Source: a virus
Length of the DNA: 44,805 bases
Strand: one strand, 5' to 3'
IMG/VR virus record: IMGVR_UViG_3300045988_165656
In this document: in pieces, positions 17,780 to 42,168 of the stretch
How the letters are laid out: each line of letters begins with the position of its first letter
Numbering within the stretch: position 1 is the first letter of the stretch
The notes under the pieces: generated by a model
Told to the model about the DNA's origin: nothing
Seen by the model: only the letters and a program-made list of their open reading frames with translations
Databases searched by the model: none
Program-made: the position numbers and the translations under genes

Positions 17780-18145
17780 TCACCAACTTTCTGTATTGAA
17801 CATGCCTTTTGCTTTTGCCAAAAGCTCAGAGGCTCGAATGCGATTTCGCATCGGTTCTTCTTCATCATTCATGATTTTTGTCCAAAATCCTTGTATCTCA
17901 GCAATCGATGCGATGTTATGTTTTACACACTCAGCAACCTTTTGGGTGTAATTTTGTGCAACCTCAGCGTTAAGTTGTGTAATATATTCCTGTACATCGC
18001 GCCTTTTGAGTAATTTTGCTGCACTTGTTCTCGCTGAAGCAGGTTTATATCCAGCTTTGATTGCTGCTTGTGCTTTATCGCCTTTGCATTCTCCAATGAG
18101 GTATTGACAAAATAAAATTTGCTTTTGATTCAGCATTTGTCTCAC
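17780..18145 (-). CDS. Terminase_2-type small-subunit-like DNA-binding protein
   Basis: LNQKQILFCQYLIGECKGDKAQAAIKAGYKPASARTSAAKLLKRRDVQEYI matches the N-terminal HTH signature of Terminase_2-family TerS proteins. Confidence 0.7.
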   Translation of the reverse strand: MRQMLNQKQILFCQYLIGECKGDKAQAAIKAGYKPASARTSAAKLLKRRDVQEYITQLNAEVAQNYTQKVAECVKHNIASIAEIQGFWTKIMNDEEEPMRNRIRASELLAKAKGMFNTESW

Positions 18146-19002
18146 CCGGTTTCATTCGTGTATTTCTTATCGATCCAACCTGTAACCGCTCCATTTTGTT
18201 TTGCACTGATTCTGAATCTGCCATTGATGATTTTTCCATCTGTCACATAGTAGAATCCTGTCAGAACATTCGCTCTTTTCTTGGCATCACTTGATGCGAA
18301 CAGTTCCATGTGGTCCAATTGAATCTTGTAACCTGCTGCAATTTTACTTGTGCTTGCCACGCCGTGTGTAGTAACACTAGCTTTCTTCGTCCAAAATCCA
18401 TTCCTACCAGCTTTCTTGATCGCTGTCGGATAGTCAAAATAGCACTCGTTGATGTCTACATTTCCAGCAATACCATAAACCTTGCCTGTGCTGGATTTCT
18501 GCCAGATACCATACTGACCCGAATATGTGCACTTTGTGTTATACTGAGCAACCCAAACTGCATAACGTTTCCGAATGTCATCAGTGAAGTATGTACTCAA
18601 AAAAGACTTACTCGTGTACAATCCGACCCAATAACCTGCATTCTCAAGAACATCAAAGAACGCTTTCGCAATAGAAGAGCATTTTGCTTTACCAAGTGCA
18701 AACTGTTTCTTTTCCTCGATGTCATAATAGATCGGAAACTCAAACGTCTTACCGGCAATTACCTTCAGGCAAACAGCAGCTTCTTGTTTGGCTTCAGCTT
18801 CACTCATAGCGTAACTGTACCAATATGCTCCACAAGGAATACTATTGGATTTGCATCCTGCATAGTTATTTTCGAATTGCTGGTCTTTCTGTGAAATCTC
18901 TTTGCCGTAACCTGCGCGGATAATGGCAAACTTTACGCCATCTGCTTTCACATGAGACCAATTCACATTTCCTTGATGTTTGGAGACGTCAATTCCTTTC
19001 AT
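18142..19002 (-). CDS. Endolysin: GH25 muramidase with a C-terminal SH3-like wall-binding domain
   Basis: MKGIDVSKHQGNVNWSHVKADGVKFAIIRAGYG is the GH25 N-terminal signature. The C-terminal ~90 aa ends NGRFRISAKQNGAVTGWI. Confidence 0.9.
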   Translation of the reverse strand: MKGIDVSKHQGNVNWSHVKADGVKFAIIRAGYGKEISQKDQQFENNYAGCKSNSIPCGAYWYSYAMSEAEAKQEAAVCLKVIAGKTFEFPIYYDIEEKKQFALGKAKCSSIAKAFFDVLENAGYWVGLYTSKSFLSTYFTDDIRKRYAVWVAQYNTKCTYSGQYGIWQKSSTGKVYGIAGNVDINECYFDYPTAIKKAGRNGFWTKKASVTTHGVASTSKIAAGYKIQLDHMELFASSDAKKRANVLTGFYYVTDGKIINGRFRISAKQNGAVTGWIDKKYTNETG

Positions 19003-19003
19003 G

Positions 19004-19231
19004 TCAATTCTCCTTTTCTAAGTCTTCGATTCGATGATTTGCAACCTTAATTTGCTCCTCATCACGTGTCAATCGTTCTTCGATCTTGAATGTTCTTTCG
19101 ATCAGATTGTTATGCTTGTTCACACGCTTTTCCAATTGTTCAATTCGATATGCTGTCAGCTTATTTCCACCGTAAACAGTCAAAATCGTACCGATCAATG
19201 TAATGACACTTACCGCTATTTCTGTACTCAT
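19004..19231 (-). CDS. XhlA-like membrane protein (lysis accessory)
   Basis: 75 aa with one N-terminal TM helix followed by a coiled coil. Sits between the holin and the endolysin. Confidence 0.6.
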   Translation of the reverse strand: MSTEIAVSVITLIGTILTVYGGNKLTAYRIEQLEKRVNKHNNLIERTFKIEERLTRDEEQIKVANHRIEDLEKEN

Positions 19232-19497
19232 TCTTCTTTTCCTAACTGCTTGTAGATTTGGTTTCCGTAAACTGCTGTACCTGCACAGAGAATCCCCTGC
19301 ACGATTCCAGAGAATATTCCGTCAAGCGATAAACCATAAAGGCTGATCGTATAAAGCGCACTCAGGACGACACCAGATATGCCCAGGAGCATCGGAATAT
19401 ATTTGTTCTTAACCATATCGGCATCACTAAAAATCTTACCAATTACGACTAATGCCGGAATCAGAATCAACATTTCAGGCCGAACATAATCAGTCAT
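19228..19497 (-). CDS. Holin (phi LC3-like family)
   Basis: ATG at 19497 follows SD gaggtg. About 89 aa with multiple TM helices and a charged C-terminus (NQIYKQLGKEE). Confidence 0.7.
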   Translation of the reverse strand: MTDYVRPEMLILIPALVVIGKIFSDADMVKNKYIPMLLGISGVVLSALYTISLYGLSLDGIFSGIVQGILCAGTAVYGNQIYKQLGKEE

Positions 19498-19521
19498 CGT
19501 TATCACCTCATCTCTAATAAT

Positions 19522-19550
19522 ATTATACCGAAATAGTGTCATATTTTACA
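19522..19550 (-). promoter_or_regulatory. Candidate promoter of the lysis-packaging-morphogenesis operon
   Basis: On the minus strand: TGTAAA, 17 nt, TATAAT, about 25 nt upstream of the holin SD. Confidence 0.4.
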
Positions 19551-21581: not shown

Positions 21582-21983
21582 TCAACCTGAATTCAACCTG
21601 ACTTTCGCAATGCCTGCATTTTTCATCATTCTTCGACAAATCGGGCAAGGTTCCGCCGCAATCACTTTTCCGTTTTCTTCGCCGTAAAGGTAGAGCGTAG
21701 AGCCAATCATATCCTTGCGAGCAGCCGAGATCATCGCATTCATTTCAGCATGCACGCTTTCGCAGTCACCATAATCACCATCATTGTGCTCATGACCAAG
21801 TCTTTTGCAGGTACCTCCGTCACAACAATTCGCTTCACCTCGAGGTGAGCCATTATATCCTGTTGCGATGATCTCATCATTCTTGACTATCACCGCTCCA
21901 TACTGTCTGCGCGTGCATGTTGATCGCTTACTGACGGCTGCTGCAATGCCAAGATAATATTCTTCGATTGTAGGTCTGTTCAT
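21582..21983 (-). CDS. dCMP (deoxycytidylate) deaminase
   Basis: Zinc motifs VHAEMNA and PCPICRRMM. 133 aa, ComEB/T4-cd-like. Confidence 0.9.
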   Translation of the reverse strand: MNRPTIEEYYLGIAAAVSKRSTCTRRQYGAVIVKNDEIIATGYNGSPRGEANCCDGGTCKRLGHEHNDGDYGDCESVHAEMNAMISAARKDMIGSTLYLYGEENGKVIAAEPCPICRRMMKNAGIAKVRLNSG

Positions 21984-23635
21984 TAGATTTTCTCCAATAC
22001 AGTGTTGCCGACAACGAGTACATCTGTACCACTTGTAATCCAGCTCTTTACTGCTACTTCTGTCGATTCAATGATCGGGTTGTTGTGCAAGTTGAAGCTC
22101 GTATTGATGAGCGCCTTCTTGCCAGTAAGAAGCTGATAGATTGAGAGTACTTTCCAGATGAACGGATCTTCATTCTGAGAGACGATTTGCGGTCTTGCTG
22201 TATGATCTACGTGGCAAGCAGCAGGATAGCTCTCGATGAATTCTGGCGTACAATCGAACGTCATCGTCATATGCTTTGCACTGTCTCTGCCACCATCAAG
22301 CTCCAAGAACAGGTCATCCGCTACTTCTTCGCGGCATACAGGAGCGAAAGGCATAAACTCTGTACGACCAAGCTTGTCATTGAGCCAAGTGTTGGTTTCC
22401 TTCGTGTCGCAATTATACAGAATGCTACGATGGCAAAGAGCACGAGGACCGAATTCCATCTTACCCTTGACGAGGCAAACGATCTTATTTTCACTGAGCA
22501 TCTCTGCGATTGTCCGTGCCAATTCATTATCGTTAGCAATTCTACGGCAAGAATACTTGTCAGACTCACCTACGATCAAACGTTCATTTGCAATTGTGCC
22601 ACATTGATTCGGGCTGATTTTTGCTTCAGGAAGATTGTCAGACAGAATAGCGTATGCTGCACCAATTGCATTGCCTTCGTCTCCCATTGCAGGGCACACA
22701 TAGACGTTTTTGAAGATACCCAATTCTTTGATTCTCTGATTGATTTTGACATTTGCAAATAATCCACCAGACAAATAGCAATTATAGTCATATTCGTCAA
22801 CGTTTTCGTATATCCACTTGCAAACACACTGCTCTGCATATTCCTGAACTGTAGCAGCGATGTCCTCACGTGTTGCTCCTGCTGCTTTCAGATTTTCAAC
22901 GAGCGAATAAGTTGCTTTCTTCAGTTTGAGGAAATCACCGAAATCATAGATGTGAGATTCTTCCACCATCTGTTCTTCTTCCTCTGTCAGAGGTACATTG
23001 CGAGATTCTACTTCCAAAGAATAGAATTCTCTCAAATATTTTGGCTGACCAAATGCTGCAAGGCCTGTGATTTTTCCTTCATGCTTGAGCTCTGTGAAGC
23101 CTAATGCACCGGTCACAAATTGATACACCAAACCAACTGAAGCTCTGAGCGGCAAAGATACGTTGACTTCATCATTACCGTATCGGTAAATGATTCCGCT
23201 GTAACCATCGCCAAAACCATCAGACGTGATGAGATAGTCACCATTTTTTGGATTGTCATAAAATGCGACTGTAGCAAAAGCATGAGCCCAGTGATGAGGC
23301 ACGTGAATGATGTCTTCAAAATCAATTGCCGTATGCTCGCGAAAGTAGTTGCGAATCACATCATGCCAATTGTCACTGTGAAGATTGTATTTTTTACCGT
23401 ACTTCTCCAAATAGTCTGTGCTCATGTTCTCATAGTGAGATACTGCGAGAGCTTCGAAATTGTATACACCAGAGAGCTCACAGCACTTCACAGCCGCATC
23501 GAAAGGAAGCTCTTTGGTATTCTTTTCACCATTCAGACGTTCCTGAGAGATCGCTGCAAGCACTCCTCGTTTGCTAGATACAACGCACGCTGAACTGTTA
23601 TGACTGAATGACATTCCAAGATAAAATTTTTCCAC
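21983..23635 (-). CDS. NodU/CmcH-family carbamoyltransferase
   Basis: 550 aa. N-terminus LGMSFSHNSSACVV...ISQERLNGEKNTKELP and HHWAHAFATVAF are family hallmarks. C-terminal carbamoyltransferase domain is present. Confidence 0.85.
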   Translation of the reverse strand: MEKFYLGMSFSHNSSACVVSSKRGVLAAISQERLNGEKNTKELPFDAAVKCCELSGVYNFEALAVSHYENMSTDYLEKYGKKYNLHSDNWHDVIRNYFREHTAIDFEDIIHVPHHWAHAFATVAFYDNPKNGDYLITSDGFGDGYSGIIYRYGNDEVNVSLPLRASVGLVYQFVTGALGFTELKHEGKITGLAAFGQPKYLREFYSLEVESRNVPLTEEEEQMVEESHIYDFGDFLKLKKATYSLVENLKAAGATREDIAATVQEYAEQCVCKWIYENVDEYDYNCYLSGGLFANVKINQRIKELGIFKNVYVCPAMGDEGNAIGAAYAILSDNLPEAKISPNQCGTIANERLIVGESDKYSCRRIANDNELARTIAEMLSENKIVCLVKGKMEFGPRALCHRSILYNCDTKETNTWLNDKLGRTEFMPFAPVCREEVADDLFLELDGGRDSAKHMTMTFDCTPEFIESYPAACHVDHTARPQIVSQNEDPFIWKVLSIYQLLTGKKALINTSFNLHNNPIIESTEVAVKSWITSGTDVLVVGNTVLEKI

Positions 23636-23647
23636 GATAATTCCTCC

Positions 23648-24118
23648 TCAATATTCGATCCAATGTGATTTGAACCAGTGTGTCCAGTTTCGATCAGTCA
23701 ATTTGGTTTTTACTACTCCGAAACCTACACCGATAGCGTATGACGATTCAATAACCTCTCCGTTTCCAACGTAAATACCAACGTGATTAGGCATGTATAC
23801 CAAAACACCTGCTATATTTGGAATGGTGTCAATTGTTCCATTTTCCGTTGCGAGTTTGAACAGGTCATCGGTTGCAATATCCTCTGACACTTCTGCACAT
23901 TTCTTCACTAGGCCGATACAATCGAAACAATATATGTACCGACCGATGAAGCTTTTAAGATATTCAACAACTGCGTGATTGTAACGTTTTGGGGCAATTT
24001 GGATTCCTTTGTTTATGACTTCTTCGCTGATGATTTCACCAGAAGCTCCCCATACAAACAAAGTGTTGATTTTCTCTAACCGTTTAGCGGTTAGAGCAAC
24101 TTCTCCGCTCGTTCTCAT
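23648..24118 (-). CDS. NlpC/P60-fold (papain-like Cys-His) protein with no signal peptide or wall-binding domain
   Basis: FDCIGLVKKC (catalytic Cys context) and PNHVGIYVGNGEVIESS (His context). 156 aa. Overlaps the ThyX-like stop. Confidence 0.6.
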   Translation of the reverse strand: MRTSGEVALTAKRLEKINTLFVWGASGEIISEEVINKGIQIAPKRYNHAVVEYLKSFIGRYIYCFDCIGLVKKCAEVSEDIATDDLFKLATENGTIDTIPNIAGVLVYMPNHVGIYVGNGEVIESSYAIGVGFGVVKTKLTDRNWTHWFKSHWIEY

Positions 24119-24834
24119 ATAAATTCCTCCATGTACGGTAATTTTTCAACCCATTCGCAGAACGTCCGCCATTCGTCAAGCTTATGGGTCTTTCTCGAAT
24201 GGTACATGTTCAACAGCACTTCATAATTCAATTGTACCGTTGCACGCTGGTTATAACTTGACGGTAAAAGCTGAATCATCTGCCACCAGTATTTTTTATC
24301 TTTTGTTTGTAAATACATATTCTTGTTACTGTTCAATACCGCCACGGTTATTTGTAATAACGAATAAGGGTGTAAAAGTATATCGTATTCACCAACCGAT
24401 AATTTAGCGTGAGTATTACCAGTAGTTTCTAAATGTTCATGCGAAAAATCATCTATAGTAAATTCTTTTTTGTGAATCGTGTGCATCGTTGAACAAGAAT
24501 TGCGAACAGTGCCAACCTTATATGTATCGAATTCCTTCCACCAATATAACGGTGCTGTGATGTCAACTGTCACATTTATCATACGAAGGAATTTTCTATG
24601 GTCTGTACCAGCTTTGACGAGTTTCTTCATCCGAGCAAGGTCATTTTCACCGACAATAAGATGAGCTGTATTTTCATTACAAACGCAACGGTGAACACAA
24701 TTTTTAGGACATTCTTCATCATACCAAGTGTCGCAAAAATCACTATCCGACTTGTCCCAACTGTTCATTGGATTTCTCATTCCACGAATGGCTGCTTCCC
24801 ATCCGTATACTTCATCATTTTCAATTTGAATCAC
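24115..24834 (-). CDS. ThyX-like (flavin-dependent thymidylate synthase family) protein with a divergent substrate motif
   Basis: DHRKFLRMINVTVDITAPLYWWKEFDTYKVGTVRNSCSTMH and LPSSYNQRATVQLNYEVLLNMYHSRK parallel ThyX blocks. The canonical RHRxxSxxxxSxRY motif is altered. Confidence 0.55.
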   Translation of the reverse strand: MIQIENDEVYGWEAAIRGMRNPMNSWDKSDSDFCDTWYDEECPKNCVHRCVCNENTAHLIVGENDLARMKKLVKAGTDHRKFLRMINVTVDITAPLYWWKEFDTYKVGTVRNSCSTMHTIHKKEFTIDDFSHEHLETTGNTHAKLSVGEYDILLHPYSLLQITVAVLNSNKNMYLQTKDKKYWWQMIQLLPSSYNQRATVQLNYEVLLNMYHSRKTHKLDEWRTFCEWVEKLPYMEEFI

Positions 24835-25526: not shown

Positions 25527-25946
25527 TTATACTCCTGTACTCCCAAAGCCGTTGCTTCCACGTTCCTCAATATCCTCTGTGACAAAATCAGCAATAACAA
25601 CTGGTGTAATTACCAATTGGCCAATTCTGTCACCGTTATGTACAATGAAGGATTCTCTACCTACGTTTGTAACGATCGCGTGAATTTCTCCACGGTAACC
25701 AGAATCAATTGGAGGAAGCTCACAAACAATTCCCTTTGTGCTCAAGCCGCTTCTTGGAAATACGCATGCAGCATAACCATCAGGGAGAATCAATCCCAAA
25801 CCGAGAGGAATCTTACGAGTGTGATTCGGAGGAATTACAATTGTTCCTTCACCTGTGATATGAGCATGTACATCTGCACCTGCATCGTTTGCGTGAGCTC
25901 TAAGCGGCAGTTTCTCATAGCCGTAGTCCAACACCTTAATCTTCAT
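25527..25946 (-). CDS. dut: Trimeric dUTPase-family nucleotidohydrolase
   Basis: AGADVHA, PRSGLS, IDSGYRGEI and C-terminal RGSNGFGSTG motifs. Confidence 0.9.
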   Translation of the reverse strand: MKIKVLDYGYEKLPLRAHANDAGADVHAHITGEGTIVIPPNHTRKIPLGLGLILPDGYAACVFPRSGLSTKGIVCELPPIDSGYRGEIHAIVTNVGRESFIVHNGDRIGQLVITPVVIADFVTEDIEERGSNGFGSTGV

Positions 25947-26739
25947 ACTTTTCCTCCTTCAAAATGCCATAGTCTTCACATGCCAGAACCAAATCAATTT
26001 TTGGAGTTTCACTTTTTTCAACAATTTGCTCCAAAATGAACTTGTAGCACATCAACTTTTCAAAATCGACCGAAATTTGAAGAGTTGGAATTGTAGCAGC
26101 CGCTCTTACGATGTCATCATAATTGCGTTCATACACGTGCAGACTTACGACTGTATGCGTATATGTGCCACATTCAACGTCCAGTCTTTTGGCGATATAT
26201 TTCTGCAGCTCAGTGAAGAAAATCGTGTCATACGGTAAACCATACCAAACGTCATTGCTGCGCATGATTCCATAACCGTGTAGCTTGCCGTCACGAATGA
26301 GGAACTGCAATGCAATCGTGCAAATCTCATCCTTCGTCTCAATCACACGTTTATTTGGAACATTGAAATTGATAACTGCCCGTCTGCTTGTAGGGTCACT
26401 GCACAAAAGCTGAATGATCTTCTCGACCTGATTGAAACCGTGTCTACCGAAGACAATATCACCATACGCTGAATATGAGGTTACTCCGTCATCCGAGATG
26501 CGACCCCAAAGACCTGCGAATTTGTTTATAAAGCCTACATCATTGCGCCCAAGAGCGTACCAGAGCAGCTCTCCGCAAATGTACGGCTTTGAGATATTTC
26601 TCACGTTGATAACGTTATTATCCAAATTAGTCAGCGTGAATGAATATCCGTTTAGCTCTTTCGTTCCTCTCACTTCGGGTGCATCTACCAAATCGCTACA
26701 AATTTTTTTGTAAATGCTATCCATGTTGTTTGCAATCAT
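25936..26739 (-). CDS. ThyA-family pyrimidine C5 transferase, predicted dCMP-specific (hydroxymethylase or methylase)
   Basis: Aligns without gaps to E. coli ThyA from the catalytic Cys (EICTIALQF) through RSND to GLPYD. Asp replaces the specificity residue Asn177. Confidence 0.75.
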   Translation of the reverse strand: MIANNMDSIYKKICSDLVDAPEVRGTKELNGYSFTLTNLDNNVINVRNISKPYICGELLWYALGRNDVGFINKFAGLWGRISDDGVTSYSAYGDIVFGRHGFNQVEKIIQLLCSDPTSRRAVINFNVPNKRVIETKDEICTIALQFLIRDGKLHGYGIMRSNDVWYGLPYDTIFFTELQKYIAKRLDVECGTYTHTVVSLHVYERNYDDIVRAAATIPTLQISVDFEKLMCYKFILEQIVEKSETPKIDLVLACEDYGILKEEKYED

Positions 26740-26953
26740 GTTTCTTCTCTCCTAACATTTCGTAAATTTTTCTGAATGAGGTCATTTGTGCAATTTCGTT
26801 CATTGTGAATTTCACGTCGAATTCGTCCTCGATAGCGACGATTAAACCGATATGAGCAAGACTGTCCCATCCATCGGTATTTTCTGGTGTAGAATTTTCA
26901 TCTACCTCTACTTTCAGCACTTCGCGAAAGATTTCTTTCAATCGTTCGAGCAT
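26717..26953 (-). CDS. Acyl carrier protein
   Basis: 78 aa, acidic, with the phosphopantetheine-attachment context GWDSLAHIGLIVAIEDEF. Ends in TAG and overlaps the next start. Confidence 0.8.
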   Translation of the reverse strand: MLERLKEIFREVLKVEVDENSTPENTDGWDSLAHIGLIVAIEDEFDVKFTMNEIAQMTSFRKIYEMLGEKKHDCKQHG

Positions 26954-28545
26954 TCAATCACCTCATTTTTTTCAGTATAGTCATCAACGTTTAACATCCA
27001 ACGAGCAACCGAATATTTGGTGAAACCTAACTTTTGGTATATGTCAAGATTTGAGTTGTTTCTGTCGTTTTCGAAAAAAAGTCCTACAACCTGTTTGATA
27101 CCTCTTGATTTGCATTCATCGATGAAAGAATCAAATAATGCAAATTCCAAATCTCGTTTGAGAACTCTACAGCTCATCACCCAAATATCTATGACAGCTG
27201 AATCGTTTTCCATCTTTGCAGAAATAACACTGACTAAACCGTTATCACCAAATTTGTCTTTTAGCTTTGCTGTCAGCGTGAATCTGTTCTCGTTGCGAAG
27301 AACACTCTCGCTGATTTTGTATCCTGTCAAATTGAATTGGTGCGTTTTGTTGATTAGCTGAATAGATCGCTCAATCGTGTCATCGTTTAACATTTCGATT
27401 TTTGCTTGCATGTGCAAACTTTCCAAATATTCGCGATAGTCGGAAAATTTACCTTCGAACGATTGTCTTTCGGCGTTCGCTTTGTACATATCTGCCCTAT
27501 TCAGATCGTCGTTTGTAACGATCGTCGGTTCGAAATACGCTTGCTTATCCAATTCTCTTATTCTCTCGGTGATATCTGCCATGAGTGGCGTTTCAACTCC
27601 GAGCTGTTCATGAACCAGATAACGTTCCGCTTCATTGTCGTCGATGAACACAAAATCAGTAGGTGCAATGCCGACTTCTTCTGATAATCGTTCCAAGTTA
27701 CTAGCTTTGTCGTTCCAATTTGCAAGTATGATAGGAAAATCAGATTCGCCGAGAATTCCTCCAGATGTTCTCAACGCACTCAGAGCAGCATCTTCGTTAT
27801 TCTTCGATATAACATATAACGGCACATTCAAATCCTTGATGTACTGTTGGAACTCTCTGAATGCTCTACCTATAGCATTATCTGCGGCAACATTTACCGT
27901 GCCTTCTCCTGCTAATCCATCCCACAATGTGTTATCCAAATCAATTGCGATGGCTTTTTTATTTTCACCGCAAATAGACTTTATGATATGCAAAATATTC
28001 GAACACAATATTGGAATTGCAGCAACGTCTAACGCATAACCATACATGTACCAATGAGACAGATTGTGCCATTTTTCAAGACCGTAATTCGCAGAAAGCC
28101 AATTGATGTCATTGATATGGAACCAATCGTGACTTGCCGCAAAGTCATAAAACTTCTCATTGAGTTTTGCTAAAAATCTAGATTTGCCTCTAACATCGTA
28201 GCAATCTCGATTTCCTAACAATCGATAAAACGGCATCTCGAAATTATTTTGGATAACATGGCAATCATAATCGTCATGCAACTTCAACCACATTTCTTCA
28301 TACCGATTATATTCGTTGTCCAGTTTTCTCAGGATCTCATCTGGTGAATCTTTCACGTTCGGCTCATAAATTATATTCCTATTTGTAGTGTGAATGTAGA
28401 TGAAATCTGGAGTGAATCCGTGAAAATCACCATACATCGCTGTTTCCCAAAACTTGCCGAAATCGTCCTCGTAAACCTCGTGATGTTCTCCTAAAATTTT
28501 GGCAATATGAGCAGTAGTGGAACCTCCCAAAATAGCTATCTTCAT
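26938..28545 (-). CDS. FkbH-like HAD-IIIC phosphatase/acyltransferase (glyceryl-ACP loading type)
   Basis: IAIDLDNTLWDG, VISKNNEDAA, ANWNDKASNL, FVFIDDNEAER and C-terminal VMSCRVLKRDLE match the FkbH-domain blocks. ATG at 28545 overlaps the upstream stop (ATGA). Confidence 0.85.
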   Translation of the reverse strand: MKIAILGGSTTAHIAKILGEHHEVYEDDFGKFWETAMYGDFHGFTPDFIYIHTTNRNIIYEPNVKDSPDEILRKLDNEYNRYEEMWLKLHDDYDCHVIQNNFEMPFYRLLGNRDCYDVRGKSRFLAKLNEKFYDFAASHDWFHINDINWLSANYGLEKWHNLSHWYMYGYALDVAAIPILCSNILHIIKSICGENKKAIAIDLDNTLWDGLAGEGTVNVAADNAIGRAFREFQQYIKDLNVPLYVISKNNEDAALSALRTSGGILGESDFPIILANWNDKASNLERLSEEVGIAPTDFVFIDDNEAERYLVHEQLGVETPLMADITERIRELDKQAYFEPTIVTNDDLNRADMYKANAERQSFEGKFSDYREYLESLHMQAKIEMLNDDTIERSIQLINKTHQFNLTGYKISESVLRNENRFTLTAKLKDKFGDNGLVSVISAKMENDSAVIDIWVMSCRVLKRDLEFALFDSFIDECKSRGIKQVVGLFFENDRNNSNLDIYQKLGFTKYSVARWMLNVDDYTEKNEVIECSND

Positions 28546-29018
28546 CAAATCATCCTTTCGATCTCGTTAACTACCTCATCAACAGTCTTACCTGTGGTGT
28601 CAACAAGAGGAAATAAACACGAATCTGAAAGTGTGACATAGTCACGATTGATATTTTTCACTAATTCGAAATCTTCGACGTATTCGTCACCTCTAGCTTC
28701 GAGTCGTTTCTTCAATTCAGATTCGCTCGCCGTCAAGATAAACACTTTACAACCGTAGCTGTCCAACAAAGTAAATAACATGTCCTCAACAGTATCATCG
28801 AATTTTGGTTTGCGACCGAAATATCTTGGATAGATGAGCTCGCTGATGAAACAACGATCATGTACCATGTTATCTGGCACCATTACTTCCATATACTTTC
28901 TTATTGTACCGTCACCGTCATGAGTAAGTCTGATGATGTCACAATGCAAGCGATTGGCCAATTTTTCAACAACTGACGTTTTACCTGTACAATCGCATCC
29001 TTCGATCAAAATTCTCAT
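28545..29018 (-). CDS. Thymidylate-kinase-like dNMP kinase
   Basis: P-loop ILIEGCDCTGKTS (compare Tmk EGxDGxGKT). ATG at 29018 follows SD gaggagg. Confidence 0.65.
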   Translation of the reverse strand: MRILIEGCDCTGKTSVVEKLANRLHCDIIRLTHDGDGTIRKYMEVMVPDNMVHDRCFISELIYPRYFGRKPKFDDTVEDMLFTLLDSYGCKVFILTASESELKKRLEARGDEYVEDFELVKNINRDYVTLSDSCLFPLVDTTGKTVDEVVNEIERMI

Positions 29019-29189
29019 TTGTTCCTCCTCACGGTTCATTTCTTGTGAATCTCACAACTGCAACAAATTTTTTCCGGCTGAGATCATATGTCATATGCCA
29101 GTCAATCACCGCTACCTTATTGGATAACTGTGCTAACTGTGCTGCAAGATTGACTCTGTTCATAGCCTCAAAGCTGATACATTCGACCA

Positions 29190-40237: not shown

Positions 40238-40457
40238 AAATTCAACAAAGTCAGCATAATTCGAATAATGTTGAATTGCGAAAAACCGTTGGTATGCCGC
40301 ACTTTTTTGACTGCCAATTCCACAATTCAACTTAAAACGCTCATTTTATATATACTTATACGTCGATAATTTTTAACGTCGAAATTTTTCGACGTAGATA
40401 TATAGAATAATATATATTATTATATTATCTTGACTTGACACTGAAAGAAGGAGAATG
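40238..40457. repeat. Right copy of the diverged inverted duplication (partner at 21181-21415); integrase upstream region
   Basis: See 21181-21415. Includes the integrase SD region gaaagaaggag. Confidence 0.7.
40376..40395. promoter_or_regulatory. Perfect 9-2-9 palindrome ACGTCGAAA-TT-TTTCGACGT
   Basis: Exact reverse-complement arms. An extra ACGTCGA half-site lies at about 40359. A degenerate copy sits at 21259-21278 in the left repeat. Confidence 0.6.
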
Positions 40458-40461
40458 CACT

Positions 40462-41478
40462 ATGAAAAATCCAAATGGCTACGGTTCAGTATTCAAATTA
40501 GGAGGAAATCGGCGACGACCGTGGTGTGCCAGAGTAACAGTAGGATGGACAGACGACGGCAAACAAAAATATCAGAATATTGGATATTATGAAGAACGTA
40601 GCGAAGCACTAATTGCACTTGCAAAATATAACGACGATCCATATGACTTAGATGCAAACAAAATCACGTTCGCTGAGATATACGAAAAATGGTCAGAAGA
40701 GAAATTTCCAAAAATCTCTCAGAGTAACATTAGAGGGTATCGAACGTCTTTCAATAAATGCTCAAGACTTCACAATGTGAAATTTAGACAAATCAAGAAA
40801 ATGCACATGCAAAGAGTTATCACTGAGAATGAGCATTTATCGTTTCAAATTAGAAGTAAAATGAAAACGCTGTTCTCACAGCTCTATCGTTTTGCTATTG
40901 AGAATGACATAGTTGAGAAAGATTATTCTCAATTCGTCGATGCTGGAGAAATGACAACAAAAATAATACGTATGCCTTTCTCAGATAACGAAATAGAGCT
41001 ACTCTGGGACAATTTGGATATGGAATATATAGATACAATATTGATTATGATATACACAGGGATGCGTGTCGGAGAGCTTCTGGAGATGCGATGCGATGAC
41101 ATTGATATAAACTCTCGTATTATGATCGGTGGAATAAAAACAGCAGCAAGTAAAAATCGTGCTATTCCAATTCATAAACGAATAGTACCGCTTGTTGAAA
41201 AACGATTGAAACAAGAATATTTAGTGCAAAGTCCAACCGGTAAGAAATTTTCCTACAACAATTACATACAGCGGCAATTTACTCCACTCATGACGAAATT
41301 AGGTATGAGTCACCTGCCGCATGACTGCCGTCATACCACCGCTACTAAATTGGATAACGTAGGTGCAAACACCACTATTATCAAACGAATATTAGGCCAT
41401 GCTTCGCATGATATTACAGAACGAGTATACACTCACAAAACACACGAACAATTGGTAGAAACTATAGACAAAATATAA
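40462..41478 (+). CDS. int: Tyrosine recombinase (phage integrase)
   Basis: ATG at 40462 follows SD gaaggag. Catalytic context TGMRVGEL, HDCRHT, LGHAS and RVYTH. N-terminal arm-binding-like domain. Confidence 0.9.
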   Translation: MKNPNGYGSVFKLGGNRRRPWCARVTVGWTDDGKQKYQNIGYYEERSEALIALAKYNDDPYDLDANKITFAEIYEKWSEEKFPKISQSNIRGYRTSFNKCSRLHNVKFRQIKKMHMQRVITENEHLSFQIRSKMKTLFSQLYRFAIENDIVEKDYSQFVDAGEMTTKIIRMPFSDNEIELLWDNLDMEYIDTILIMIYTGMRVGELLEMRCDDIDINSRIMIGGIKTAASKNRAIPIHKRIVPLVEKRLKQEYLVQSPTGKKFSYNNYIQRQFTPLMTKLGMSHLPHDCRHTTATKLDNVGANTTIIKRILGHASHDITERVYTHKTHEQLVETIDKI

Positions 41479-41528: not shown

Positions 41529-41699
41529 TTAGTGGCGGTTACGCATGTGTTCCTTGTGTTTCTCATACGCTTCTGGGTGAGTTACATAAAAGACAGTGGA
41601 CATCGAACAACCAAAATACTTGCAAATGAACTTATACGTGAATCTATTCACATGCATTTCGATCATCTTACTTTTTTCTTTAGTCGTGTACCGTCTCAT
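41529..41699 (-). CDS. Small HTH-like protein
   Basis: ATG at 41699 follows SD gaaggagg. 56 aa with the segment FICKYFGCSMSTVFYV. Confidence 0.45.
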   Translation of the reverse strand: MRRYTTKEKSKMIEMHVNRFTYKFICKYFGCSMSTVFYVTHPEAYEKHKEHMRNRH

Positions 41700-42168
41700 T
41701 TTTCTTAGCCTCCTTCTTTGCTGCACGAGCAGCTTTGCGATCCGCTTTCACTTTGTCACATGCCTTCTTGTACTTTTCACCGTCACGTTCGAAGTTCTCT
41801 TCAGTAGACACATACCGTACTCTGTAGCCATTAGCTCTGAGATCGCGGTAGAAATCGTTGCGATTTGCATATTCACTGCGTACTACTTCGAACTCATTGG
41901 TTTCAGTATTTCTTACACTTGCAACAAGCAGTTTCTTTTTCTTCTGAACAGATTCATCATTCTTAGAAGCTTCAGATTCGCTCTCAGGCACACTTTCTTC
42001 TTCGGTAAGTAAAGTATCTACGAAAGTTTCTTCTTCGTCCTGAGACTCGTTCTGAGCGTTCTGAATAGCTTCGATGAGTTCAGTCTTCTTCATGCTCCAC
42101 CAGTTCTTGATCTTCAGCTCTTTTGCTGTTGCCTTGAGTTCTTTGCTTGTCATGTTTTCGATATTCAT
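41680..42168 (-). CDS. Hypothetical protein with a Rho_N/SAP-like N-terminal motif
   Basis: SKELKATAKELKIKNWWSMKKTELIEAI, followed by an acidic linker and a basic C-terminus. Confidence 0.45.
   Translation of the reverse strand: MNIENMTSKELKATAKELKIKNWWSMKKTELIEAIQNAQNESQDEEETFVDTLLTEEESVPESESEASKNDESVQKKKKLLVASVRNTETNEFEVVRSEYANRNDFYRDLRANGYRVRYVSTEENFERDGEKYKKACDKVKADRKAARAAKKEAKKNETVHD

What the first reader, a model, noticed from the sequence alone, without database searches (positions are those of the whole stretch)
21983..24118. NodU/CmcH carbamoyltransferase and a cytoplasmic NlpC/P60-fold protein at the end of the nucleotide operon
The 550-aa protein has the family N-terminus and the HHxAHA motif of NodU/CmcH/TobZ-type O-carbamoyltransferases. 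These enzymes combine a Kae1/TsaD-like domain with a YrdC-like domain that makes carbamoyl-AMP, so they are relatives of the tRNA t6A machinery that modifies a nucleobase. Here it is translationally coupled to dCMP deaminase: the stop and start share nt 21983.

The adjacent 156-aa protein has the Cys (FDCIGLV) and His (HVGIYVGNG) contexts of NlpC/P60. It lacks a signal peptide, a wall-binding domain and any link to the lysis cassette 5 kb away. A role as an acyl-transfer, thioesterase or amidase step is therefore as plausible as a role in lysis.
Basis: partly seen in the sequence, partly recalled or inferred. Interest (0 to 1): 0.7.

Follow-up and report, generated by a model that had tools for sequence, protein, structure and literature searches.

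The report
Phage cytosine carbamoyltransferase with endolysin-derived peptidase
A temperate phage of gut Clostridia carries the already described enzyme set for replacing cytosine in its DNA with a carbamoylated derivative, and next to the carbamoyltransferase sits an optional cysteine peptidase, descended from a phage cell-wall lysin, whose role is still open.

Summary
Both ORFs are real and lie at the stated coordinates. The 550-aa protein is a full-length NodU/CmcH/TobZ-type carbamoyltransferase (CT). The 156-aa protein is a catalytically intact NlpC/P60 Cys-His-Glu enzyme.

The CT sits in a conserved phage module: dNMP kinase, an Asp143/Asp177 thymidylate-synthase homolog, dUTPase, CT and dCMP deaminase. 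Yang et al. 2021 (eLife) linked this gene combination to 5-carbamoyloxymethylcytosine DNA and validated one enzyme. The window CT is only 26% identical to that enzyme. It belongs to a separate clade of viral CTs linked to a thymidylate-synthase homolog, so its function is inferred from context, not orthology.

The closest relatives of the NlpC/P60 protein outside its own clade are about 245-aa prophage endolysins with wall-binding tails. The CT-linked forms are monophyletic. All lack the tail and a loop next to the catalytic Cys, and all lie immediately 5' of the CT. They are under purifying selection but are absent from 8 of 14 related phage lineages. The protein is therefore not needed for carbamoylation.

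New lead: in the window's subclade an FkbH-like enzyme and an acyl carrier protein are inserted in the same operon. One close relative lacks these two genes and also NlpC/P60.

Verdict: a known kind of system, in a variant with unexplained accessory genes.

The parts
21983..23635 (-). Carbamoyltransferase (550 aa), NodU/CmcH/TobZ family. Has a Kae1-like N-domain with HHWAHA and a YrdC-like C-domain with GPRALCHRS and NTSFN motifs.
   Evidence: Pfam N and C domains. PDB phmmer: GdmN E=7e-52, NovN, TobZ 2e-26. PHROG 1601. 120+ metagenomic homologs at 46-95% identity, several on phage-sized contigs.
23648..24118 (-). NlpC/P60 cysteine peptidase or amidase (156 aa), catalytic domain only. Triad Cys67-His112-Glu124.
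   Evidence: Pfam. Homologs. AF2 model with pLDDT 95.9. Foldseek against PDB and BFVD. Loop and tail analysis.
21582..21983 (-). dCMP/cytidine deaminase (133 aa). Its start overlaps the CT stop.
   Evidence: Pfam dCMP_cyt_deam_1, 70.5 bits. TAATG junction.
24115..24834 (-). 239-aa protein of PHROG 6721, a divergent ThyX-like fold. Immediately upstream of NlpC/P60.
   Evidence: PHROG 6721 E=1e-76. Weak Thy1 hits in 5 of 7 family members, best E 0.006. No PDB sequence hit.
25527..25946 (-). Trimeric dUTPase-family enzyme (139 aa).
   Evidence: Pfam. NCBIfam dut equivalog, 110.8 bits against cut-off 103.
25936..26739 (-). Thymidylate-synthase homolog (267 aa), predicted (deoxy)cytidylate C5-hydroxymethylase. 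Asp at E. coli L143 (KDEIC) and N177 (PYD). Arg and Ser at the MilA K133 and A176 positions.
   Evidence: Best PDB hit is MilA CMP hydroxymethylase, E=6e-30, against ThyA at about 1e-15. Motif scan across relatives. Residue rules from PMC5175136 and PMC13326640.
26717..26953 (-). Acyl carrier protein (78 aa) with a DGWDSLAH phosphopantetheine-attachment motif.
   Evidence: Translation. Weak ACP hits in NCBIfam (1e-6) and PHROG 5934. PP-binding flagged on the L004 ortholog.
26938..28548 (-). FkbH-like HAD-IIIC phosphatase/acyltransferase (536 aa) with DLDNTLW and MSCRV motifs.
   Evidence: NCBIfam TIGR01686 FkbH, 198.2 bits against cut-off 146.65. 45% identical to homologs in Ruminococcus, Lachnospiraceae and other Clostridia.
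28545..29039 (-). dNMP (thymidylate-type) kinase (164 aa). Its stop overlaps the FkbH-like start.
   Evidence: Pfam, NCBIfam and PHROG 761.
18142..19542 (-). Separate lysis cassette: GH25 endolysin (286 aa), a 75-aa ORF and a holin (104 aa).
   Evidence: PHROG 291 endolysin E=1e-54. Holin homologs carry Phage_holin_5_2 in relatives.

Best explanation
The window is a temperate siphovirus-type phage of gut Clostridia. It makes its own modified cytosine.

Inferred pathway:
1. The dUTPase-family enzyme and the host supply dCMP.
2. The thymidylate-synthase (TS) homolog, which has Asp at the ThyA 143 and 177 positions, converts dCMP to 5-hydroxymethyl-dCMP.
3. The phage dNMP kinase and host NDP kinase raise it to the triphosphate.
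4. The phage B-family polymerase incorporates it into DNA.
5. The 550-aa carbamoyltransferase makes carbamoyl-AMP from carbamoyl phosphate and ATP in its YrdC-like domain. It then transfers the carbamoyl group to the C5 hydroxymethyl oxygen in its Kae1-like domain. The substrate could be the nucleotide or single-stranded DNA. The product is 5-carbamoyloxymethylcytosine, which should block restriction.
6. The coupled deaminase and the ThyX-like protein keep dTMP supplied.

The 156-aa protein is an active NlpC/P60 Cys-His-Glu amidase. It descends from the catalytic domain of a prophage endolysin. It is an optional passenger of this operon and is not part of the carbamoylation chemistry. I think it most likely still cleaves a gamma-glutamyl-type peptide bond of peptidoglycan or its precursors, acting as an auxiliary lysin without a wall-binding domain.

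Shown: domain identities, catalytic residues, gene order and coupling, distribution among relatives, and purifying selection. Inferred: every substrate and the chemistry.
For: Carbamoyltransferase (CT):
- Both Pfam domains are far above cut-off. The full length matches the solved O-carbamoyltransferases GdmN, NovN and TobZ.
- H114/H118/D139/D319, GPRAL and NTSFN are invariant in 21 relatives.

Context:
- Kinase, TS, dUTPase and CT, with a deaminase nearby, are conserved in 14 related phage lineages.
- The TS has RSNDxxxGLPYD in all of them where the region is held.
- In a neighbour-joining tree of 108 CTs, all TS-linked CTs fall in one clade, apart from about 80 unlinked ones.
- The same CT, TS and deaminase association was found for cytosine-modified phage contigs. 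One such CT made 5cmdC from 5hmdC with carbamoyl phosphate and ATP.
- At the TobZ G421 position, both the window clade and the characterised enzyme have Cys. GPRALCH occurs in 15 of 22 TS-linked CTs but in about 5 of 166 others.
- The best solved match of the TS is MilA hydroxymethylase. The residue rules favour a deoxy-cytidylate substrate and a non-methyl product.

NlpC/P60:
- The triad is intact in all homologs.
- Relatives at 30-43% identity are mostly 210-266-aa proteins with C-terminal extensions, several of which carry PG_binding_1, SH3_3 or CW_7 domains.
- The nearest relative outside the clade, P0010, overlaps the last of three small membrane proteins in a prophage.
- Top structural matches are peptidoglycan DL-endopeptidases.
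- dN/dS is 0.10-0.15.
- It is absent from L002, L006, L009, L010, L037, L213, L214 and L219, all of which keep the CT.
Against: - The CT is only 26% identical to the one characterised 5hmC carbamoyltransferase (126 bits). That is less similar than it is to the antibiotic-tailoring GdmN. In the tree the characterised enzyme is a long branch outside the window's clade. At the TobZ R423 position the window keeps Arg, while the characterised enzyme has Thr.
- TS homologs with the same two Asp substitutions include flavin-dependent 5-hydroxy-dCMP synthases, whose best structural match is also MilA. The acceptor could therefore be 5-hydroxycytosine.
- No chemistry was measured.
- For NlpC/P60, an auxiliary-lysin role does not explain several observations:
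  - The gene sits in a terminator-free early operon, tightly coupled to the CT, in three lineages diverged to 35-60% identity.
  - All six CT-linked forms share a shortened loop beside the catalytic Cys and have lost the tail.
  - The phage already has a complete lysis cassette.
Confidence: 0.5

Rival explanations
1. The NlpC/P60 protein has been repurposed as a thioester-using enzyme of the DNA-modification pathway. In the window's subclade the FkbH-like enzyme loads a glyceryl-type acyl group from a phosphorylated precursor onto the phage ACP. The NlpC/P60 Cys takes the acyl group from the ACP. It then either transfers the group to the hydroxymethyl or carbamate group of the modified cytosine, or hydrolyses it as an editing thioesterase. 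The result would be a second, still undescribed decoration.
For: - FkbH-like and ACP genes are inserted between the kinase and TS only in genomes that also have NlpC/P60: the window, L001, L004 and L005.
- L002, whose CT is 87% identical to the window's, lacks FkbH-like, ACP and NlpC/P60 through two separate replacements.
- FkbH passes its curated cut-off and keeps the DxDxT and SCRV motifs. The ACP keeps the DSL serine.
- The bacterial homologs work with MBOAT and DltD-like transferases that the phage lacks, so a transferase is missing.
- The CT-linked NlpC/P60 clade has lost the wall-binding tail and a loop beside the active site.
- All these genes are under equal purifying selection.
- I found no paper describing this.
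Against: - L036 has a CT-linked NlpC/P60 but no FkbH-like or ACP gene between the kinase and TS. The peptidase therefore predates, and functions without, the acyl-carrier genes.
- The co-variation rests on perhaps two independent events. A naive Fisher test on 9 genomes gives p of about 0.05 and ignores phylogeny.
- The fold is the unpermuted P60 type, closest to peptidoglycan hydrolases and not to LRAT-type acyltransferases.
- Family-wide conserved residues are retained.
- No phosphopantetheinyl transferase was found in the window.
Confidence: 0.2
2. The NlpC/P60 protein is a cytoplasmic host-takeover or small-molecule amidase unrelated to DNA chemistry. For example, it might cleave UDP-MurNAc-peptide precursors or recycled muropeptides early in infection. 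It would stay next to the CT only through inherited synteny.
For: - It is expressed from the early or middle operon, has no export signal and has no wall-binding domain.
- Its distribution is patchy, like that of a moron.
- A related phage (L219) carries another stand-alone wall-hydrolase-like 3D-domain gene in its early replication module.
- From background knowledge, NlpC/P60 and CHAP enzymes include cytoplasmic amidases such as YkfC-type muropeptide peptidases and glutathionylspermidine amidase.
Against: - There is no direct evidence.
- It does not explain the constant adjacency and translational coupling to the CT while the upstream neighbours change: p239 in the window and L035, a 68-aa ORF in L036 and a 59-aa ORF in L034.
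Confidence: 0.2
3. The carbamoyltransferase does not act on nucleic acid. Like the cyanophage and bacterial NodU-like enzymes, it would carbamoylate a sugar or another metabolite.
For: - It is more similar to GdmN and NovN than to the characterised DNA enzyme.
- Many phage CTs lie next to sugar-metabolism genes.
- A distant CT is coupled to an FkbH-like gene in a sugar-tailoring cluster (L102).
Against: - It lies inside a tight kinase, TS, dUTPase and deaminase operon with overlapping stops and starts.
- It belongs to a clade in which linkage to an Asp-type TS is the rule.
- No glycosyltransferase or sugar-nucleotide genes were detected in the held flanks of the close relatives.
Confidence: 0.08

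Closest known systems
5-hydroxymethylcytosine carbamoyltransferase of sewage phage contigs (MetaGPA; Yang et al. 2021, eLife, PMC8670742)
   Same: - Same two-domain NodU/TobZ architecture.
- Same gene company: Asp177-type TS homolog, dCMP deaminase (PF00383 and PF14437) and a dNMP-handling enzyme.
- Cys at the TobZ G421 position.
- Predicted same reaction: carbamoyl phosphate plus ATP gives carbamoyl-AMP, which is transferred to the oxygen of 5hmC.
   Different: - Only 26% identity, and not in the same clade in my tree.
- Arg is retained at the TobZ R423 position, where the characterised enzyme has Thr.
- A trimeric dUTPase replaces the MazG-like PRA-PH partner.
- The host is a Gram-positive gut anaerobe and the phage is temperate.
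- Extra genes (NlpC/P60, FkbH-like, ACP, ThyX-like) lie in the operon.
TobZ, GdmN and NovN antibiotic O-carbamoyltransferases (PDB 3VEN, 7VYJ, 9S2T)
   Same: Full-length alignment (E=7e-52 to GdmN). HxxxH metal motif, GPRAL and NTSFN motifs. Two-step mechanism via carbamoyl-AMP.
   Different: - No C-terminal extension of the GdmN type.
- GPRAL-Cys-His instead of GPRAL-Gly-Asn/His.
- Phage nucleotide context instead of a natural-product cluster.
Prophage endolysins with an N-terminal NlpC/P60 domain and a C-terminal PG_binding_1, SH3 or CW_7 domain (P0006-P0043), and solved peptidoglycan endopeptidases (Acd24020 7CFL, RipB 3PBI, CwlO, LytE)
   Same: - Same fold, with catalytic residues in the order Cys, then His, then Glu.
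- The same N-terminal helical subdomain.
- 30-43% identity to the endolysins.
- D66, G69, Y116, G118, E124 and W148 are conserved.
   Different: - No wall-binding tail.
- 12 residues instead of 16-32 in the loop after the catalytic-Cys helix.
- Not next to a holin. It is embedded in the nucleotide operon and coupled to the CT.
FkbH/OzmB-type glyceryl-ACP loading enzymes, and the FkbH-like + ACP + MBOAT + DltD-like polysaccharide acylation loci of Clostridia
   Same: The FkbH domain scores above the curated cut-off. HAD DxDxT and SCRV motifs are present. A small ACP with a WDS(L/I) motif lies adjacent.
   Different: - Phage-borne.
- No MBOAT, DltD-like or ketosynthase partner.
- Inserted between a dNMP kinase and a pyrimidine hydroxymethylase.

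Membership tests
NodU/CmcH/TobZ O-carbamoyltransferase (PF02543 + PF16861) | N-terminal Kae1/ASKHA-like domain and C-terminal YrdC-like domain in one chain | tested here: met
   108.6 bits (cut-off 24) and 169 bits (cut-off 27). Full-length matches to GdmN, NovN and TobZ.
NodU/CmcH/TobZ O-carbamoyltransferase (PF02543 + PF16861) | Metal-binding HxxxH plus two Asp, and the GPRAL and NTSFN nucleotide/carbamoyl-phosphate motifs | tested here: met
   H114, H118, D139, D319, G396-L400 and N511-N515 are invariant in 21 sequences. Equating them with the TobZ ligands rests on my background knowledge of Parthier et al. 2012.
Phage 5hmC carbamoyltransferase (Yang et al. 2021) | Encoded next to an Asp177-type TS homolog and a dCMP deaminase on a phage genome | tested here: met
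   TS with the PYD motif lies 2.3 kb upstream. The deaminase overlaps the CT stop.
Phage 5hmC carbamoyltransferase (Yang et al. 2021) | Same phylogenetic clade as the characterised enzyme | tested here: not met
   26% identity and 126 bits. The characterised enzyme is a long branch outside the TS-linked clade that holds the window (neighbour-joining, no bootstrap).
Phage 5hmC carbamoyltransferase (Yang et al. 2021) | Differential residues at TobZ W408, G421 and R423 | tested here: inconclusive
   Window L388, C401, R403. Characterised enzyme I, C, T. TS-unlinked CTs mostly R, G, R. The Cys is shared and the third position is not.
Phage 5hmC carbamoyltransferase (Yang et al. 2021) | Carbamoylates 5hm-dC in DNA or nucleotides with carbamoyl phosphate and ATP | not testable with these tools
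   Needs an enzyme assay or nucleoside mass spectrometry.
NlpC/P60 (PF00877), P60-like unpermuted branch | Papain-like fold with Cys at the N-terminus of a helix, followed by His and a polar third residue | tested here: met
   Cys67, His112 and Glu124 are conserved. Pfam 24.3 bits against cut-off 23. The model matches 7CFL, 3PBI, 6BIQ and others.
Holin-dependent phage endolysin | Peptidoglycan-hydrolase domain encoded beside a holin, in Gram-positive hosts usually with a wall-binding domain | tested here: not met
   The hydrolase domain is homologous to endolysins. There is no tail. The gene is 4-5 kb from the holin and lies inside the nucleotide operon. Peptidoglycan cleavage itself is not testable here.
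LRAT/HRASLS-type acyltransferases of the NlpC/P60 superfamily | Circularly permuted core with His before the catalytic Cys (background knowledge: Anantharaman and Aravind 2003) | tested here: not met
   Cys67 precedes His112. No LRAT or HRASLS structure appears among the 50 PDB matches listed. One BFVD hit is labelled 'Lecithin retinol acyltransferase', which I take to be an automatic name, on a 230-aa phage protein.
FkbH (TIGR01686) with cognate ACP | HAD-IIIC DxDxT phosphatase motif, acyl-accepting Cys (SCRV), and an adjacent carrier protein with a phosphopantetheinyl Ser | tested here: met
   198.2 bits against cut-off 146.65. DLDNTLW and MSCRV are present. The 78-aa ORF has DGWDSLAH, but it scores below the ACP equivalog cut-offs.

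The most novel reading that the evidence does not exclude
In the window's subclade the phage would make a doubly tailored cytosine. The FkbH-like enzyme and phage ACP would generate a glyceryl-type thioester. The endolysin-derived NlpC/P60 protein, stripped of its wall-binding parts, would act as the acyltransferase or editing thioesterase. It would put this acyl group on, or remove it from, the hydroxymethyl or carbamate group of the modified base. That would be the first carrier-protein-dependent DNA hypermodification, and the first lysin domain recruited into nucleobase chemistry.
Probability: 0.12. Interest if true: 0.9.

Novelty: new variant of a known kind. Interest (0 to 1): 0.5.

Why it matters
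The carbamoyltransferase extends the 5-carbamoyloxymethylcytosine pathway, so far validated for one sewage-phage enzyme, in two directions. It adds a separate and populous enzyme lineage, and it adds temperate phages of gut Clostridia. The analysis also suggests a possible sequence signature (GPRAL-Cys-His) and points to cultured Bacteroides and Acinetobacter phages where the chemistry could be tested.

The unexplained parts are the interesting ones. A lysin-derived cysteine enzyme is fixed in front of the carbamoyltransferase, and an FkbH-like protein and ACP pair is inserted in the same operon. If these genes act on the base, phage DNA chemistry would gain acyl-carrier-dependent modifications. 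That would bear on restriction evasion and on tools for 5hmC detection. If they do not, they are an example of wall-directed accessory genes carried in an early operon.

Tried and rejected
- Megablast of the operon against 50,697 phage records found nothing.
- The GTDB genome scan found no CT above 40% identity, so it gave no prophage copy and no host assignment.
- The JGI metagenome scan added only one close relative, L037.
- I first thought NlpC/P60, the FkbH-like protein and the ACP co-occur perfectly. L036 has NlpC/P60 without the other two genes, which refutes a strict link.
- I rejected the LRAT-type acyltransferase reading because the Cys and His are in the unpermuted order and the PDB matches are peptidoglycan hydrolases.
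- FkbH-like genes on other viral contigs (L118-L132) are not next to TS, CT or NlpC/P60. L118 appears to be flanking bacterial DNA at a prophage end.
- The sequence search of the 239-aa protein against the PDB gave nothing. Only weak ThyX profile hits were found.
- No phosphopantetheinyl transferase was detected among the window ORFs scanned.
- Overall similarity of the TS homolog cannot separate 5hm- from 5ho-dCMP synthases, because both types have MilA as their best match.
I re-ran it without that sequence.


Full report
**Observation**

All genes in the region are on the minus strand. The 550-aa ORF (21983-23635) carries both carbamoyltransferase Pfam domains far above cut-off. It contains HHWAHA. 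It aligns over its full length with the solved O-carbamoyltransferases GdmN (E=7e-52), NovN and TobZ. Its TAA stop overlaps the ATG of a 133-aa dCMP deaminase as TAATG.

The 156-aa ORF (23648-24118) ends 12 nt before the GGAGG-preceded GTG start of the carbamoyltransferase (CT). It starts in an ATGA overlap with the upstream 239-aa gene. It passes the NLPC_P60 Pfam cut-off narrowly, at 24.3 against 23 bits. Its Cys67, His112 and Glu124 are conserved across 37-38 homologs. An AlphaFold model built on 37 sequences has pLDDT 95.9. The protein has no hydrophobic segment.

**Context**

The window is almost a whole temperate phage. It has an integrase at 40435-41478 and a replication module with an SNF2 helicase, PD-(D/E)XK/AAA_24, DUF669, a 647-aa protein whose L036 and L219 counterparts carry a faint DNA_pol_B Pfam hit, and a D5-type primase-helicase. 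It also has terminase, portal and tail genes.

Between the primase gene and the late genes lies a tightly packed block with no strongly stemmed terminator-like site. In order of transcription it contains:
- a dNMP kinase (28545-29039);
- an FkbH-like protein (26938-28548);
- a 78-aa acyl carrier protein, ACP (26717-26953);
- a thymidylate-synthase (TS) homolog (25936-26739);
- a dUTPase (25527-25946);
- an HTH protein and a 105-aa protein;
- a 239-aa protein with a weak ThyX-like signal (24115-24834);
- NlpC/P60, the CT and the dCMP deaminase.

A separate GH25 endolysin and holin cassette lies at 18142-19542.

**What the CT most likely does**

The TS homolog has Asp at the positions of E. coli ThyA N177 (PYD) and L143 (KDEIC). 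Its best solved relative is the CMP hydroxymethylase MilA (E=6e-30, against about 1e-15 for true thymidylate synthases). It has Arg and Ser where MilA has the ribose-selecting Lys133 and Ala176. This is the deoxy-type pattern. Asp177 selects cytosine, and an acidic residue at position 143 goes with a non-methyl C5 product.

Yang et al. 2021 showed that, in cytosine-modified phage contigs, CTs co-occur with exactly such TS homologs and with dCMP deaminases. They also showed that one such enzyme converts 5hmdC to 5-carbamoyloxymethyl-dC, in ssDNA, dsDNA, RNA and as the triphosphate, using carbamoyl phosphate and ATP. It had no activity on 5hmdUTP. The same logic applies here.

The module of kinase, TS, dUTPase and CT, with a deaminase nearby, is kept in 14 related phage lineages whose CTs are about 50-95% identical to the window's. 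I built a neighbour-joining tree of 108 CTs drawn from the loci fetched up to that point. In it, every TS-linked CT falls in one clade that contains the window, apart from about 80 TS-unlinked ones.

Cultured Bacteroides (BF503P1) and Acinetobacter (MD-2021a, HHU4, Effie) phages show the same CT, TS and deaminase linkage.

**Membership caveats**

The window CT is only 26% identical to the characterised enzyme. It is less similar to that enzyme than to GdmN. In my tree the characterised enzyme is a long branch outside the window's clade.

The three positions that Yang et al. found to be differential are TobZ W408, G421 and R423. I verified the mapping.
- The window has L, C and R at these positions.
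- The characterised enzyme has I, C and T.
- TS-unlinked CTs mostly have R, G and R.
- GPRAL-Cys-His occurs in 15 of 22 TS-linked CTs but in about 5 of 166 others.

The assignment is therefore by context plus one shared signature residue, not by orthology.

A second caveat concerns the acceptor. TS homologs with the same two Asp residues, and with MilA as best structural match, include the newly described flavin-dependent 5-hydroxy-dCMP synthases of RB69 and DLP3. The acceptor could therefore be 5-hydroxycytosine. The closest cultured-phage TS homologs (43-45% identity) are from Enterococcus phages VPE25 and VFW. Their cytosines resist bisulfite and they encode a T4-like beta-glucosyltransferase. 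This mildly favours the hydroxymethyl route.

A third caveat concerns the deaminase. Phage deaminases linked to such TS genes often prefer modified dCTPs. The coupled deaminase may therefore act on the modified nucleotide.

**What the NlpC/P60 protein is**

A search of 5.8 billion proteins found only five close, equally short relatives (60-99% identity). The next tier, at 30-43% identity, consists mostly of 210-266-aa proteins. Several of these carry PG_binding_1, SH3_3, CW_7 or PG_binding_3 tails. The nearest of them, P0010, overlaps the last of three small membrane proteins in a prophage. That is a classical holin-endolysin arrangement.

Foldseek against the PDB returns peptidoglycan hydrolases first: Acd24020, RipB, NlpC2, CwlO and LytE, at E of about 1e-4 and TM of about 0.58. 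BFVD returns phage endopeptidases and tail lysins. One 230-aa phage protein there is labelled 'LRAT', which I take to be an automatic name. The catalytic order is Cys before His, the unpermuted P60 type and not the LRAT type. The protein therefore descends from an endolysin catalytic domain.

**Distribution and derived features**

A homolog lies immediately 5' of the CT in these genomes:
- the window;
- L001;
- L004 and L005;
- L035 (78% identity);
- L034 (60%);
- L036 (35%, with the Cys and His kept).

The upstream neighbour differs between lineages: p239, a 68-aa ORF or a 59-aa ORF. The gene is absent from L002, L006, L009, L010, L037, L213, L214 and L219, all of which keep the CT. L213 is a close relative of L036 (their CTs are 82% identical) and lacks it.

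The CT-linked forms are monophyletic in a neighbour-joining tree. All six have exactly 12 residues between the catalytic Cys and a conserved Asp, against 16-32 in the 32 other homologs. All six have a C-terminal tail of 0-4 residues. dN/dS is 0.10-0.15, the same as for the CT, TS, FkbH-like protein and ACP.

I conclude four things:
- The gene is functional.
- It was recruited once.
- It changed in two structural respects.
- It is dispensable for carbamoylation.

**The FkbH-like and ACP lead**

The 536-aa protein passes the curated FkbH model at 198 against 146.65 bits. It keeps the DLDNTLW and MSCRV motifs. The 78-aa ORF has an ACP-type DGWDSLAH motif. Their nearest non-phage relatives (45% identity) are in Ruminococcus, Lachnospiraceae and other Clostridia. 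There they sit with an ACP and, in a polysaccharide locus, with MBOAT and DltD-like transferases. The phage has no such transferase and no phosphopantetheinyl transferase.

These two genes occur only in the window, L001, L004 and L005, all of which have NlpC/P60. L002 has a CT as close to the window's as L001's is, yet it lacks all three genes. Its kinase segment has been replaced by an L006-type kinase (72% identity to L006's, 49% to the window's). In place of NlpC/P60 it has a 37-codon ORF.

This co-variation suggests a link. It rests on very few independent events, and L036 shows NlpC/P60 without the FkbH-like and ACP genes. I found no literature on FkbH, ACP or NlpC/P60 genes in phage DNA-modification clusters.

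**Judgement**

- The CT is a new member, from a distinct lineage, of a known kind of phage DNA-modifying enzyme.
The idea gains some support from the derived features and the fixed position.
- I rank the NlpC/P60 roles in this order: a retained peptidoglycan or gamma-glutamyl-peptide hydrolase activity first, then a pathway role in thioester or acyl handling, then an unrelated cytoplasmic role. None of these is shown.
- The decisive data would be nucleoside mass spectrometry of virion DNA from relatives with and without the accessory genes, together with simple enzyme assays.

Noticed in passing
window 26717-28548 (-): An FkbH-like HAD-IIIC enzyme (536 aa, above the TIGR01686 cut-off) and a 78-aa acyl carrier protein lie between the dNMP kinase and the pyrimidine hydroxymethylase. 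The start of each overlaps the stop of the gene before it. They are 45% identical to homologs in Ruminococcus, Lachnospiraceae and other Clostridia. I found no report of such genes in phage DNA-modification operons.
   Followed up: partly
window 24115-24834 (-): The 239-aa protein of PHROG 6721 is conserved next to the CT in most relatives. It gives weak ThyX (PF02511) hits in 5 of 7 family members, and I did not see the canonical RHR...S motif in it by eye. It could be a divergent flavin-dependent pyrimidine enzyme.
   Followed up: partly
window 40435-41478 (+): A tyrosine integrase is present, so the phage is temperate although it encodes a base-replacement pathway. No prophage copy was found in the GTDB representative genomes.
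   Followed up: partly
window 25936-26739 (-): The TS homolog has Asp at both the ThyA 143 and 177 positions, and its best PDB match is MilA. The same holds for the recently described 5-hydroxy-dCMP synthases. The base could therefore be 5-hydroxy- rather than 5-hydroxymethyl-cytosine.
   Followed up: partly
L002 7872-8000: In this close relative a 37-codon hydrophobic ORF (MFEVGIITFCLLSILFLSADNKRLEEELKERKENPDE) occupies the place of NlpC/P60. The kinase segment has been replaced by an L006-type kinase without the FkbH-like and ACP genes.
   Followed up: yes
L004 9132-9770; L005 10632-11270; L035 3779-4417: An RNA-ligase-family gene (PF09414) is inserted between the CT and the dCMP deaminase in one sublineage.
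   Followed up: no
L001 compared with L004: The operon is mosaic. NlpC/P60, the FkbH-like protein, TS and the deaminase are 95-99% identical between these two phages, but the CT and the 239-aa protein are only 81% identical. This indicates recombination inside the operon.
   Followed up: partly
L219 590-1033: A 147-aa 3D-domain protein (PF06725, a wall-hydrolase-like fold) lies in the early replication module of a related phage. It is another wall-enzyme-like gene outside a lysis cassette.
   Followed up: no
L102 4544-7917: On a metagenome contig a distant CT (32% identity) is translationally coupled to an FkbH-like gene (28% identity). They lie inside a sugar-tailoring cluster with a radical SAM/SPASM protein, an SDR, a methyltransferase, a PhyH dioxygenase and a DegT aminotransferase.
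   Followed up: partly
L217 (Bacteroides phage BF503P1, OP172670) and L218 (Acinetobacter phage MD-2021a): Cultured phages carry a CT next to a dCMP-hydroxymethylase-type TS, a dut or deaminase gene and, in the Acinetobacter phage, a DNA ligase. The CT is annotated as hypothetical in BF503P1. These are ready systems for testing 5cmdC.
   Followed up: partly
window 41680-42168 (-): A 162-aa protein with an N-terminal Rho_N domain lies in the lysogeny region.
   Followed up: no
L214 3407-4378: A PAPS-reductase-family gene (PF01507) lies in the replication module of a relative that has the minimal kinase, TS, dUTPase and CT module.
   Followed up: no
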